Source: a virus
Strand: one strand, 5' to 3'
DNA: 64,000 nucleotides
Virus record (IMG/VR): IMGVR_UViG_3300030098_004420
Coordinates: 1-64,000 of that record
Shown here: positions 21,000 through 22,109 of the stretch, piece after piece
Numbering within the stretch: position 1 is the first letter of the stretch
Layout of the letters: each line of letters begins with the position of its first letter
Notes under the pieces: generated by a model
What the model was told of the DNA's origin: nothing
What the model saw: the letters and a program-made list of their open reading frames with translations, nothing else
Database searches by the model: none
Program-made: the position numbers and the translations under genes

Positions 21000-21334
21000 C
21001 AACAGCCACAGAAGAAAAGAAAGTAACTATCTGGACAAAAGAAGAGAAAGATAATTTTAAATCCAAGTATGGTTCTGAAATACTTGTAGAGAATGGTTCA
21101 TATGAAGATGTAACCATTACACAAGCACCTAGTGATGCTTATATTATAAAGTATATGCATGAAGATAAGATTTGTTTTGATTTAACTAGAGGAACAAAGA
21201 TAAAGTTGTTTGATATGTATTGGGATAAGTTTAAAGGTGGAATAAAATCTATTGAGTATGGTAAGGGTAGTATCAAACCAAACTTGTGGGGATATCAGTC
21301 ACCTAAACCACCAAAGAAAAAAAGGAAAGCGTAA
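20996..21334 (+). CDS. Hypothetical cyanophage protein
   Basis: 112-aa ORF with ATGA overlap. Confidence 0.8.
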   Translation: MTTATEEKKVTIWTKEEKDNFKSKYGSEILVENGSYEDVTITQAPSDAYIIKYMHEDKICFDLTRGTKIKLFDMYWDKFKGGIKSIEYGKGSIKPNLWGYQSPKPPKKKRKA

Positions 21335-21405
21335 ACCAAATTCGACTTTTAATTCCAAAATATCGGGGAAAAAAATCGGGCAAAATTTTTGCTCTGTAGG
21401 GTTTT

Positions 21406-21421
21406 TGTATCACATGTTACA
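21406..21421. promoter_or_regulatory. NtcA-binding box
   Basis: TGTATCACATGTTACA matches TGTA-N8-TACA and ends 7 nt before a -35 element. Confidence 0.7.
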
Positions 21422-21428
21422 GAACTAC

Positions 21429-21457
21429 TTGACTATATAGTATAACTGTGTTAGTAT
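21429..21457 (+). promoter_or_regulatory. sigma70-like promoter
   Basis: TTGACT (21429-34), 17-nt spacer, TGT-TAGTAT (-10 at 21452-57); predicted start about 21463-64, just before the riboswitch. Confidence 0.75.
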
Positions 21458-21465
21458 TAACACAA

Positions 21466-21510
21466 CGTTCATCTCCCGTATAGGAGACGCAAGTAAGCCG
21501 ACTCGGAACG
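21466..21510 (+). ncRNA. Glutamine-II (Downstream-peptide)-like riboswitch, copy 1
   Basis: P1 CGTTC/GAACG, P2 TCTCC-CGTATA-GGAGA, then CGCAA...GCCGAC; upstream of a YRG peptide. Confidence 0.8.
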
Positions 21511-21513
21511 GAT

Positions 21514-21683
21514 CGTTCATCTCATGGACATACTACTCGCTACTCTTTTAACTTGTAAAGAGGCAGAAGGTATTATCTCTAAGGTATCATCTTCTGATCC
21601 TGTGAGAACCGAATTAATTGAGGTTCTTAAAATGAGTACTGAGAAAGGATGTGAATGGGACGCAAAAGCCGACTGAAGGAACG
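21514..21683 (+). ncRNA. Glutamine-II-like riboswitch, copy 2, with an ORF in the P2 loop
   Basis: CGTTCA-TCTCAT ... ATGGGA-CGCAAAAGCCGACTGAAG-GAACG; same core as copy 1 but P2 loop about 130 nt. Confidence 0.72.
21524..21676 (+). CDS. 50-aa peptide nested in riboswitch copy 2 (absent from ORF track)
   Basis: MDILLATLLTCKEAEGIISKVSSSDPVRTELIEVLKMSTEKGCEWDAKAD*, translated by hand. Confidence 0.65.
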   Translation: MDILLATLLTCKEAEGIISKVSSSDPVRTELIEVLKMSTEKGCEWDAKAD

Positions 21684-21719
21684 GGGATTAAACCACCCTA
21701 CTACTTTGGAGTAAAGCCA

Positions 21720-21863
21720 ATGGCAAAAGTCACTTACCGTGGACACGAGTACGATACCGATGAGTATCGTAAGGCTCTCATCGCAGAGCATAATCAACAG
21801 AGAAACTACGATTTAATGTATCGTGGAATCAAAGTGAAGAGCAAGGCAGTTCCTTGTTCTTAG
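21720..21863 (+). CDS. DUF4278-like YRG-motif small protein
   Basis: MAKVTYRGHEY...LMYRGIKV with two YRG motifs; SD GGAG at 21708-11. Confidence 0.8.
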   Translation: MAKVTYRGHEYDTDEYRKALIAEHNQQRNYDLMYRGIKVKSKAVPCS

Positions 21864-21884
21864 GTCCTAAACGCTGATTGAAAG

Positions 21885-21913
21885 GAGCACCTATTGACAG
21901 GTGCTCTTTTTTT
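21885..21913 (+). terminator. Rho-independent terminator overlapping a sigma70 promoter
   Basis: GAGCACCT-ATTGAC-AGGTGCTC-T7; TTGACA (21894-99) + 17 nt + TAAAAT (21917-22). Confidence 0.85.
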
Positions 21914-21941
21914 ATGTAAAATAGTTAAAAGTCTAATTGTT

Positions 21942-22109
21942 ATGGAACGGGACAAATTAAAGTTGATAGTCCGTAATATGGAACTATTAGTTGATGCACT
22001 TAAAGCAGAAGTATATTCTGATGTTGAGTCATACAAGAATTCAAAGGCATTTGGACCACCAACTGATTATGACGAACTCTACGATGATGACGATGGGTAT
22101 CCAGACTAG
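21942..22109 (+). CDS. Hypothetical cyanophage protein
   Basis: MERDKLKLIVRNMELLVDALKAEVYSD; ATG at 21942. Confidence 0.75.
   Translation: MERDKLKLIVRNMELLVDALKAEVYSDVESYKNSKAFGPPTDYDELYDDDDGYPD

What the first reader, a model, noticed from the sequence alone, without database searches (positions are those of the whole stretch)
21514..21683. A whole protein-coding gene nested inside a riboswitch loop
Seen: in copy 2 the 6-nt P2 loop of copy 1 is replaced by about 130 nt of coding sequence. The ORF ATG (21524) overlaps the 5' strand of P2 (TCTCAT), its Glu-Trp-Asp codons supply the 3' strand (ATGGGA), and its last codons and stop (GAC GCA AAA GCC GAC TGA) are the aptamer core. Inference: folding of aptamer 2 hides the start codon, while translation would unfold it. 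That makes the two mutually exclusive and could couple the nested peptide to the downstream YRG gene. I do not know of this architecture being characterised.
Basis: partly seen in the sequence, partly recalled or inferred. Interest (0 to 1): 0.9.

Follow-up and report, generated by a model that had tools for sequence, protein, structure and literature searches.

The report
Gene nested inside cyanophage glutamine riboswitch
In this marine T4-like cyanophage, one hairpin of a two-core glutamine-sensing RNA closes around a real 50-codon gene whose start and stop lie inside the sensor, so sensing nitrogen status and translating that gene must compete on one RNA; about two thirds of related phage leaders share the layout and I found no paper describing it.

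Summary
Observation confirmed. At 21514-21683 the two halves of a glutamine-riboswitch unit (CGTTCA...; ...GACGCAAAAGCCGACTGAAGGAACG) flank 129 nt that hold a 50-codon ORF (21524-21676). Its ATG lies in the 5' strand of hairpin P2 and its last six codons and stop are sensor core.

The ORF is a real gene (PHROG 504). The frame is open in 69/69 relatives, in-frame pN/pS is 0.53 against 0.95 and 1.52 out of frame, interior indels come in threes, the insert has no conserved RNA fold, and a free-standing paralogue exists.

The sensor is also under selection. The core is invariant and P2 pairs across the insert in every variant.

In an unbiased sample of 104 phage leaders, 70 carry such an ORF and 33 have a plain hairpin. 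A second, unrelated ORF family (PHROG 6471) sits the same way in the first unit of relatives.

An 8-nt helix between them covaries (U-A/A-U, 0 exceptions in 183 leaders), which argues for a strand-swapped double sensor.

Competition between folding and translation is structural. Reciprocal glutamine control of the nested peptide and the downstream IF17-like gene is inferred.

This scan has reported the same layout on other phage DNA. The searchable literature has not, and Rfam models miss the split unit.

The parts
21429..21457 (+). Promoter-like site: TTGACT, 17 nt, TAGTAT with TG before the -10. It would start the RNA at about 21464.
   Evidence: 9 of 12 consensus matches. The implied start coincides with the first base of the Rfam hit. 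This is a consensus match only.
21447..21464 (.). Perfect palindrome TGTGTTAGTATTAACACA over the -10. Candidate operator.
   Evidence: Read. Relatives have other palindromes at the same place, some of them GTA-N8-TAC. Not followed up.
21466..21470 (+). CGUUC, 5' strand of the outer P1. In the side-by-side reading it is the P1 of unit 1.
   Evidence: Rfam alignment. Invariant in 20/20 canonical leaders. RNAalifold pairs it with the last GAACG.
21472..21487 (+). P2a hairpin: UCUCC, loop CGUAUA, GGAGA.
   Evidence: Compensatory changes in relatives (cols 7-10 with 21-24).
21488..21495 (+). Junction CGCAAGUA, holding the AGUA half of loop E.
   Evidence: Invariant in relatives. Unit 1 has no GAA partner of its own.
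21496..21503 (+). h1 (AGCCGACU), one strand of the helix shared by the two cores.
   Evidence: Its last base covaries with the first base of h2, with 0 exceptions in 183 leaders. AU:11 and UA:9, none unpaired.
21506..21518 (+). GAACG, loop GAU, CGUUC: the inner P1 hairpin. In the side-by-side reading these are the P1 3' strand of unit 1 and the P1 5' strand of unit 2. It lies 6-18 nt upstream of the nested ATG.
   Evidence: Sequence. Predicted by RNAalifold in 20/20 relatives. The strands never vary, so there is no covariation test.
21520..21525 (+). P2b 5' strand UCUCAU. It contains A and U of the nested start codon.
   Evidence: Pairs with 21655-60 at p = 0.84-0.998. Stem kept in all relatives.
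21524..21676 (+). Nested gene, 50 codons plus TGA (PHROG 504). Two invariant Cys (C11, C43) and a predicted two-helix fold.
   Evidence: These cover the conserved frame, pN/pS of 0.53 in frame against 0.95 and 1.52 out of frame, 275 clusters at 50% identity, and pLDDT 71.
21655..21660 (+). P2b 3' strand AUGGGA, lying within the codons GAA TGG GAC.
21661..21666 (+). Junction CGCAAA of the inner core. It has no AGUA.
21667..21674 (+). h2 (AGCCGACU), partner strand of h1. Its last U is the first base of the stop codon.
21675..21677 (+). GAA, the loop E half that matches AGUA at 21492-95. G and A are the last two bases of the stop codon.
   Evidence: Rfam consensus GAAGGAACG. Present only in unit 2 in every leader.
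21679..21683 (+). GAACG, 3' strand of the outer P1.
21708..21711 (+). GGAG Shine-Dalgarno of the downstream gene, 8 nt before its ATG.
   Evidence: Sequence. Conserved as GGAG or AGGA in relatives.
21720..21863 (+). Downstream 47-codon gene with two YRG motifs. DUF4278/IF17-like, PHROG 5049.
   Evidence: Pfam DUF4278 at 24.1 bits, below the cut-off of 25.3. phrog_5049 at E = 1e-17. Alignment A6.
21885..21913 (+). Terminator-like hairpin (GAGCACCU, 6-nt loop, AGGUGCUC) followed by T7.
   Evidence: Read directly. The scan tool did not list it.

Best explanation
The stretch from about 21464 to 21913 is one short early-type transcript of a T4-like cyanomyovirus. Its leader is a double glutamine sensor.

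The sensor has two glutamine-I-type cores that share a central 8-bp helix (21496-21503 with 21667-21674). They most likely swap P1 strands.
- The outer core is closed by 21466-70 with 21679-83.
- The inner core is closed by the hairpin 21506-18.

Hairpin P2 of the inner core closes around a real 50-codon gene (PHROG 504). Its ATG is in the P2 5' strand. Its last codons and stop run through the P2 3' strand, the junction, the shared helix and the loop E half of the outer core.

Shown:
- Both the gene and the RNA pairings are under selection.
- Their overlap is fixed and widespread.
- It follows that a ribosome reading the gene must unfold both cores, and that the folded sensor buries the gene's start region (inner P1 hairpin at -18 to -6, plus P2).

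Inferred:
- Glutamine stabilises the fold. At high glutamine the nested peptide is therefore not made, while the downstream IF17-like gene is switched on, as in the cyanobacterial gifB leader.
- At low glutamine, ribosomes on the nested gene keep the sensor open and the downstream gene off.

The peptide's own function is unknown. It is a small two-helix, two-cysteine protein.
For: Gene:
- The frame is open in 69/69 unique relatives, and the other two frames hold stops in all of them.
- pN/pS is 0.53 in frame against 0.95 and 1.52 out of frame.
- Unit lengths step by three where the ORF interior changes (164/167/170/173/176 nt).
- Codon position 2 is the most conserved.
- RNAalifold finds no conserved fold in the insert (-0.43 kcal/mol).
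- The family has 275 clusters at 50% identity, with invariant C11 and C43.
- PHROG 504 matches at E = 1.9e-9.
- A free-standing paralogue has no aptamer around it.

Sensor:
- Unit 1 scores at the Rfam gathering score.
- The halves of unit 2 equal the uninterrupted unit 2 of S-PM2.
- 83 of the 84 sequences with a tblastn hit to the peptide (83 loci plus the window; 80 of the loci were fetched by peptide words alone) have GTTCA 3-6 nt before the ATG. GGAACG follows the stop wherever the locus reaches that far.
- The P2 stem is kept, with compensatory classes.
- Third-position entropy is about 0.4-0.6 bit in the core-overlapping codons against about 0.97 in the interior (my arithmetic).

Interlock:
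- The h1/h2 terminal pair is U-A or A-U with 0 exceptions in 183 leaders, and the two strands are shortened together in L072 and L096.
- The formal count is AU:11 and UA:9 with none unpaired, whereas the within-unit pairing is broken in 11/20.
- RNAalifold gives the nested topology.

Prevalence: 70 ORF-bearing, 33 plain and 1 unresolved in an unbiased sample of 104 leaders.

Independent second case: PHROG 6471 ORFs are nested the same way, in another reading frame of the core, with pN/pS of 0.43.

Permissive loop: L2 was replaced by a GAAA loop in the crystal constructs (PMC5393176).

Direction of the downstream switch: the gifB and MED4 glutamine riboswitches are ON switches for DUF4278 genes (PMC6212724).

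Transcription: RNA-library contigs cover the ORF. One is a 148-nt contig identical over 21527-21674 and one is a 306-nt contig spanning 21486-21765.
Against: - No experiment bears on ligand binding, on translation of the peptide or on the direction of regulation.
- The P1 strands never vary, so the strand swap rests on one strongly covarying pair, co-shortening, the loop E argument and an energy-based consensus. The two folds may also alternate.
- The G-U tolerance of the P2 3' strand (UGGGA) makes most P2 variation uninformative. The own-versus-cross stem control is weak (6.25 against 5.58 bp).
- The nested ATG has no well-spaced Shine-Dalgarno sequence. GGA ends 11 nt upstream.
- In half of the diverse leaders only the A of the ATG lies in the contiguous stem.
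- I found no pairing partner for the downstream Shine-Dalgarno sequence, so the expression platform of the YRG gene is unknown.
- The RNA contigs cannot exclude carried-over DNA and show neither ends nor translation.
- The existence of a free-standing paralogue shows that the protein does not need the riboswitch.
Confidence: 0.55

Rival explanations
1. Permissive-loop passenger. The gene and the sensor are both functional, but the overlap is only genome economy. L2 tolerates insertions, a small gene landed there, and the phage gains nothing regulatory from the competition.
For: - L2 can be replaced without loss of ligand binding in crystal constructs (PMC5393176).
- The family has a free-standing copy.
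- ORF modules of two or three families occur in unit 1, unit 2 or the middle of three units, and 32% of leaders lack any ORF in unit 2.
Against: - In 70/70 cases the ATG lies 3-6 nt into the P2 5' strand and the ORF runs into the core, instead of starting and stopping inside the loop.
- An unrelated family does the same in another frame.
- The physical exclusion holds whether or not it is 'used'.
- The layout has persisted while the peptides diverged to about 26% identity.
Confidence: 0.25
2. Positive coupling. Translation of the nested ORF is needed to open the leader or deliver ribosomes to the YRG gene, so the two proteins are made together and the sensor gates both.
For: - The stop lies 2 nt before the last P1 strand and 44 nt before the next ATG, on one transcript.
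- A terminating ribosome would cover the outer P1 3' strand.
Against: - 44 nt is long for termination-reinitiation.
- The YRG gene has its own GGAG at a good spacing.
- Leaders without the ORF drive the same gene.
- Unfolding P1 is the OFF state in the gifB model (PMC6212724).
Confidence: 0.12
3. Relic sensor. The ORF-bearing unit no longer binds glutamine, and the conserved flanks are kept only as translation signals and coding sequence of the nested gene.
For: - Rfam finds no hit for the split unit even at E<=10.
- Unit 2 lacks AGUA.
Against: - The non-coding flanks (CGTTCA before the ATG, AGGAACGG after the stop) are invariant while the linkers around them vary.
- Uninterrupted second units have the same core.
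- The h1/h2 covariation holds in ORF-bearing leaders too: 11 ORF-bearing leaders of the ACA/ATG class.
- Synonymous sites in the overlap are constrained.
Confidence: 0.05
4. Non-coding expansion. The 129 nt are a structured or spacer extension of P2, and the ORF is an accident.
For: - The window's own insert folds somewhat better than shuffles (z = -2.36).
- Annotated CDSs do sit on top of structured RNAs in these phages, for example manA in P-SSM4.
Against: - Coding signature.
- No conserved fold.
- Invariant Cys pair across 26-60% identity.
- Free-standing paralogue.
- 70/70 frames are open from a fixed ATG.
Confidence: 0.02

Closest known systems
Glutamine-I riboswitch (glnA RNA motif, Rfam RF01739), e.g. 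the Synechocystis gifB (IF17) leader (Ames & Breaker 2011; Ren et al. 2015; Klahn et al. 2018, PMC6212724)
   Same: - CGUUC/GAACG P1.
- A P2 hairpin directly after P1.
- A CGCAAGUA junction and GAAGGAACG.
- A position upstream of a DUF4278/IF17-like YRG gene.
- Occurrence in tandem is noted in the literature (PMC2864571).
   Different: - P2's loop holds a whole translated gene that overlaps the core.
- P3 is not a hairpin but an 8-bp helix formed between two units.
- Each unit alone has only half of loop E.
- The second unit is invisible to the Rfam model.
- In Weinberg's 2010 alignment, P-SSM2's split unit is left as unaligned flank. P-SSM4, where both units are split, is absent from the stored part of the file.
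Glutamine-II riboswitch (Downstream-peptide motif, RF01704; PMC6698751)
   Same: - Same ligand pocket logic: CGUUC pairing with GGAACG, and a CGCA linker.
- Upstream of short YRG peptides in marine picocyanobacteria.
- Unit 1 scores 26.6 bits.
   Different: - The score is below the gathering score of 33.
- The family's P2/pseudoknot helix is not formed here.
- The 'downstream peptide' of that family lies after the aptamer, not inside it.
Open reading frames in peripheral loops of group I and group II introns (homing endonucleases, maturases)
   Same: A protein gene sits in a loop of a structured functional RNA. It sometimes reaches into core helices, so folding and translation interfere.
   Different: Those are self-splicing mobile elements whose ORFs serve their mobility. 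Here the host RNA is a metabolite sensor in an mRNA leader. There is no sign of splicing or homing.
Leader-peptide attenuators and dual-function regulatory RNAs (trp leader; SgrS/SgrT; RNAIII/hld)
   Same: Translation of a short ORF inside a regulatory RNA decides which alternative structure forms.
   Different: Leader peptides are not conserved as proteins and sense tRNA charging. Here the ORF is a conserved protein family, with a free-standing paralogue, embedded in a ligand-binding aptamer.
Tandem glycine riboswitch
   Same: Two aptamers for one ligand in one leader, joined by inter-aptamer contacts.
   Different: Here the two cores appear to share a helix and swap their closing strands, and one carries a gene.

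Membership tests
Glutamine-I riboswitch (RF01739) | Covariance-model score at or above the gathering score (35 bits) | tested here: inconclusive
   Unit 1 (21464-21514) scores 35.3 bits. The ORF-split unit (21514-21683) gives no hit even at E<=10. The equivalent uninterrupted unit of S-PM2 scores 33.3 bits.
Glutamine-I riboswitch (RF01739) | P1 helix CGUUC/GAACG closing the junction | tested here: met
   Both strand pairs are present. They are invariant in relatives, so there is no covariation. Which 5' strand pairs with which 3' strand is ambiguous from sequence alone.
Glutamine-I riboswitch (RF01739) | P2 hairpin next to P1, supported by covariation | tested here: met
   - P2a and P2b show 8 pairs with compensatory changes in uninterrupted leaders.
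- Across the ORF, the stem is 4-12 bp in 70/70 leaders.
- Compensatory classes include UCCUUA/UGAGGA.
Glutamine-I riboswitch (RF01739) | Loop E (AGUA opposite GAA) at the base of a P3 hairpin | tested here: not met
   Not met within either unit: unit 1 has AGUA but no GAA, and unit 2 has GAA but no AGUA. It is met only if the units pair with each other through h1/h2. This is a variant architecture, not a textbook member.
Glutamine-I riboswitch (RF01739) | Selective binding of L-glutamine | not testable with these tools
   Needs in-line probing or ITC.
Glutamine-I riboswitch (RF01739) | Leader of a nitrogen-related gene, typically DUF4278/IF17-like | tested here: met
   Downstream gene 21720-21863: DUF4278 at 24.1 bits, just under Pfam's cut-off of 25.3. 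phrog_5049 at E = 1e-17. Two YRG motifs.
Glutamine-II riboswitch (RF01704) | Score at or above 33 bits, with the P2/pseudoknot helix formed | tested here: not met
   26.6 bits, with most P2 pairs marked as non-standard.
PHROG 504 (phage small protein, unknown function) | Profile match over the whole protein | tested here: met
   Window ORF E = 1.9e-9 (residues 2-48). P-SSM4 5.6e-16 and P-HM1 3.5e-12.
Protein-coding gene (as opposed to RNA spacer) | Conserved frame, purifying selection, and indels in multiples of three | tested here: met
   as set out in the For line.

The most novel reading that the evidence does not exclude
A metabolite sensor and a protein gene are deliberately overprinted. 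The folded, glutamine-bound double aptamer silences the gene inside its own hairpin, and ribosomes on that gene in turn dismantle both ligand pockets. This gives a reciprocal, ribosome-sharpened switch between the nested peptide (low glutamine) and the IF17-like glutamine-synthetase inhibitor homologue (high glutamine) during infection of the ocean's most abundant phototrophs. It would be a regulatory logic not described for any riboswitch class, together with a strand-swapped two-core aptamer fold.
Probability: 0.4. Interest if true: 0.9.

Novelty: new variant of a known kind. Interest (0 to 1): 0.8.

Why it matters
Riboswitch aptamers are treated as non-coding. Here a conserved protein gene lies inside one and shares nucleotides with its ligand-binding core, in most leaders of this type sampled from marine cyanomyovirus contigs.

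Standard covariance models miss the split unit. Surveys have therefore undercounted phage riboswitches: McCown et al. 2017 report only two glutamine aptamers in cyanophages (PMC5473149).

If the competition is used, it is a new way to couple metabolite sensing to translation. It also gives a direct handle on how cyanophages read and manipulate host nitrogen status through the IF17-like gene.

The apparent strand-swapped two-core fold is also a testable new RNA architecture.

Both claims can be tested with probing and reporter assays on a 450-nt RNA.

Tried and rejected
- Rfam at E<=10 on 21300-21950: no hit for the split unit. This is expected, because a 129-nt loop insert costs more than the model's score, so it is not evidence against.
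- Pfam on the peptide: nothing.
- Foldseek against the PDB with the AF2 model (pLDDT 71): no match at E<=0.001.
- ESM Atlas: only the peptide's own family.
- Profile-profile comparison of the two nested families (A4 against A5): probability 33%, so common origin is unproven.
I therefore did not test whether cellular genomes hold the nested form.
- No test of peptide/YRG-protein binding was made and none is claimed.
- The terminator scan found none, although a hairpin plus T7 is readable at 21885-21913.
- Search for a partner of the downstream Shine-Dalgarno sequence by RNAalifold: none found.
- Own-versus-cross P2 stem control: weak (6.25 against 5.58 bp), because UGGGA pairs with many 5' strands.
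- Parts of 21300-22000 without RNA-contig cover are not interpreted. The 'joints' are relatives with a plain hairpin, not splicing.
- Weinberg's supplementary alignments: the P2 loop region of glnA.sto has about 150 gap columns, so some aligned member has a long insert. I could not identify it in the stored part, and four string searches for nested-ORF sequence found nothing.
- Lipoprotein or signal-peptide reading of the N-terminus (MDILLATLLTC): rejected on inspection. It has no basic n-region, only 10 residues before the Cys, and Thr at -1.

Full report
**What the window is.**
The region lies in a T4-like cyanomyovirus record (78.9 kb viral contig). Its closest isolates are P-SSM2-type phages.

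Around the finding, the + strand carries:
- a promoter-like site (TTGACT, 17 nt, TAGTAT; 21429-57);
- an Rfam glutamine-riboswitch hit at 21464-21514 (RF01739, 35.3 bits against a gathering score of 35);
- the stretch in question (21514-21683);
- a GGAG and a 47-codon gene with two YRG motifs (21720-21863; DUF4278 at 24.1 bits, just under Pfam's cut-off; phrog_5049 at E = 1e-17);
- a hairpin followed by a T-run (21885-21913, read).

- CGTTC (21514-18), A, then TCTCAT (21520-25) are followed 129 nt later by ATGGGA (21655-60) and ACGCAAAAGCCGACTGAAGGAACG (to 21683).
- The ORF runs from ATG 21524 to TGA 21674-76.
- The split pattern occurs once in the window and never in 100 shuffles.
- Phage S-PM2 has the same leader with an ordinary 20-nt hairpin in the second unit. 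The 3' half of that unit is identical to the window's, and Rfam scores it at 33.3 bits.
- Rfam itself cannot see the split unit even at E<=10.
- In a thermodynamic fold of 21440-21760, the six P2 pairs across the insert have probabilities of 0.84-0.998, and A and U of the start codon are paired.

**The insert is a gene.**
- A word-based protein search found 41 clusters at 56-100% identity.
- A full profile search found 275 clusters at 50% identity.
- PHROGs files the ORF under phrog_504, together with annotated 'hypothetical proteins' of P-SSM4, P-SSM7, S-SSM7 and P-HM1.
- In 80 IMG/VR loci fetched through peptide words from the N-terminal and middle parts, there are 70 unique ORF sequences. 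The frame is open in 69 of the 69 analysed, and both other frames contain stops in all.
- pN/pS is 0.53 in frame against 0.95 and 1.52 out of frame.
- Codon position 2 is the most conserved.
- Unit lengths step by three where the ORF interior changes.
- RNAalifold finds no conserved structure in the insert (-0.43 kcal/mol, only P1).
- Across members at 26-60% identity, two cysteines and one glutamate stay fixed.
- AlphaFold gives a modest two-helix model (pLDDT 71) with no structural relatives.
- A subgroup ending in GCYEGSERNS is free-standing in cyanomyovirus-like contigs. It has no CGTTCA upstream and no Rfam hit. The protein therefore exists on its own as well.

**The RNA is also under selection.**
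- 83 of the 84 sequences with a tblastn hit to the peptide (83 loci plus the window) have GTTCA 3-6 nt before the ATG. GGAACG follows the stop wherever the locus reaches that far.
- The linkers around these motifs vary.
- All 24 P2 stem variants keep at least 5 contiguous pairs. Compensatory classes include UCCUUA/UGAGGA, in which the encoded residues change from E-W-D to F-E-D.
- Variants that lose one base in the 3' strand shift the reading frame and acquire a different tail (...ETQKPTKGTD). This shows that the C-terminal residues are dictated by the RNA.
- Third-position entropy is about 0.4-0.6 bit in the codons that overlap the core, against about 0.97 bit in the interior (my arithmetic).

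**How common it is.**
- I scanned IMG/VR with the core of the second unit alone (CGCANANGNNGACTRAAGGAACGG).
- Of 104 unique evaluable leaders, 70 carry an ORF in P2 of that unit, 33 have a plain hairpin and 1 is unresolved.
- In all 70, the ATG lies 3-6 nt into the P2 5' strand and the ORF reads into the core. Among the 39 for which the position was recorded, the stop always lies 13 nt into the core, at GAC TGA or GAC TAA.
- A second, unrelated family (phrog_6471; 67 codons; invariant H14, H18, W19, C23 and C59; pN/pS of 0.43 against 1.05 and 1.25) is nested the same way, mostly in the first unit. It reads the core in another frame (GGA CGC AAG TAA).
- That family also occurs in the second unit, or in the middle unit of three.
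- P-SSM4 and P-HM1 carry ORFs in both units.
- A profile comparison does not establish homology between the two families (33%).

**The two units are probably interlocked.**
Earlier notes of this scan use that word, so I tested it.
- Unit 1 has the AGUA half of loop E but no GAA. Unit 2 has GAA but no AGUA.
- The 8-mers after AGUA (h1, 21496-21503) and before GAA (h2, 21667-21674) are both AGCCGACU. Antiparallel to each other they give 6 of 8 pairs.
- In 183 unique leaders the terminal pair is U-A (h1 ...ACU, h2 AAG...) or A-U (h1 ...ACA, h2 AUG...), without exception.
- h2 variants GUUGACU add a pair. Both strands are shortened together to AGUCA/UGACU in L072 and L096.
- On 20 uninterrupted leaders the formal count is AU:11 and UA:9 with none unpaired. 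The within-unit two-base 'P3' of the Rfam alignment is broken in 11 of 20 in each unit.
- A helix between h1 and h2 is only compatible with complete cores if CGUUC(21466-70) pairs with GAACG(21679-83), and GAACG(21506-10) pairs with CGUUC(21514-18) across the GAU loop. RNAalifold predicts exactly that topology.
- The P1 strands never vary. The swap is therefore an inference from one covarying pair, co-shortening, the loop E argument and energy. The two folds might also alternate.

**Mechanism.**
*Shown:* the ORF's initiation region (inner P1 hairpin at -18 to -6, and P2 over the ATG) and its last eight codons (P2 3' strand, junction, h2, GAA) are the sensor. The stop lies 2 nt before the outer P1 3' strand. 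A translating or terminating ribosome therefore excludes both cores, and the folded RNA occludes the start.

*Inferred from established work:*
- Glutamine stabilises P1 and the junction (Ren et al. 2015, as summarised in PMC5393176 and PMC6698751).
- Glutamine riboswitches before DUF4278 genes are ON switches (PMC6212724).

Together these predict the nested peptide at low glutamine and the IF17-like protein at high glutamine, with ribosome traffic sharpening the choice.

*Open points:*
- I could not identify the expression platform of the downstream gene.
- The nested ATG has no well-spaced Shine-Dalgarno sequence.

*Transcription:* metatranscriptome contigs cover the ORF (identical over 21527-21674), and one contig spans 21486-21765. 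Relatives with plain hairpins are present in the same libraries. This is compatible with transcription, but it does not exclude DNA carry-over and says nothing about translation.

**Prior knowledge.**
- Weinberg et al. 2010 describe glnA RNAs, note tandem copies and list cyanobacteria and marine samples (PMC2864571).
- In their alignment, P-SSM2 has only its first unit aligned, with the split unit left as flank. P-SSM4 is absent from the stored part of the file.
- McCown et al. 2017 found only two glutamine aptamers in cyanophage genomes.
- The cyanophage papers that mention the riboswitch do not mention ORFs inside it.
- Four full-text searches returned nothing on a gene inside this aptamer. 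Ames & Breaker 2011 was not held.
- The nested ORFs themselves are annotated as hypothetical proteins (T4-GC 429/430/541; PCMG_00321 in one P-SSM2 record).
- This scan has reported the same layout in many other phage genomes. Those are unreviewed notes, not publications.

**Verdict.**
The side-by-side picture should be replaced by a two-core, probably strand-swapped sensor. The regulatory use of the overlap is likely but unproven.

Noticed in passing
window 21447-21464: A perfect palindrome, TGTGTTAGTATTAACACA, overlaps the -10 of the leader's promoter-like site. Relatives carry different palindromes at the same spot, some of them GTA-N8-TAC (for example ggtatgctaacatacc). This suggests an NtcA-type operator, as at the NtcA-repressed gifB promoter.
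   Followed up: partly
L087 115-300 (P-SSM4, AY940168.2): A manA RNA (184 bits) lies just upstream of the riboswitch cassette. The record annotates a CDS (PSSM4_169.1, T4-GC 428, locus 170-343) on top of it. This is either a spurious call or another ORF/structured-RNA overlap.
   Followed up: no
L228 and L229, 501-659: A free-standing paralogue of the nested peptide (PHROG 504 type, ending GCYEGSERNS) lies behind its own promoter-like TTGATT in cyanomyovirus-like contigs. It has no aptamer halves around it.
   Followed up: partly
L096 and L098 (about 600-950); L094 and L095: Some leaders have three sensor units, with the PHROG 6471 ORF in the middle one. In L094/L095 the same ORF sits in the last unit and acquires a different tail (...GRKS). 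The ORF-in-hairpin modules seem to be exchangeable between units.
   Followed up: partly
L165 (reverse strand, about 150 nt upstream of 1927-1950): A third kind of nested ORF (61 codons, MFLLSLILATSQ...). Its TAA stop lies inside the P2 3' strand (UCUUAU pairing with AUAAGA), so start and stop codons face each other in the stem. L107 and L109 (PHROG 6471) show the same with UCUUAUGG/CCAUAAGA.
   Followed up: no
window 21885-21913 and 21894-21922: The terminator-like hairpin after the YRG gene carries the -35 hexamer (TTGACA) of the next promoter-like site in its loop (11/12 consensus match).
   Followed up: no
window 21300-22000, RNA runs X15-X18: Marine metatranscriptome contigs contain both ORF-bearing and plain-hairpin versions of the second unit. 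Very high word depth over the conserved core segments reflects many co-occurring phage strains.
   Followed up: partly
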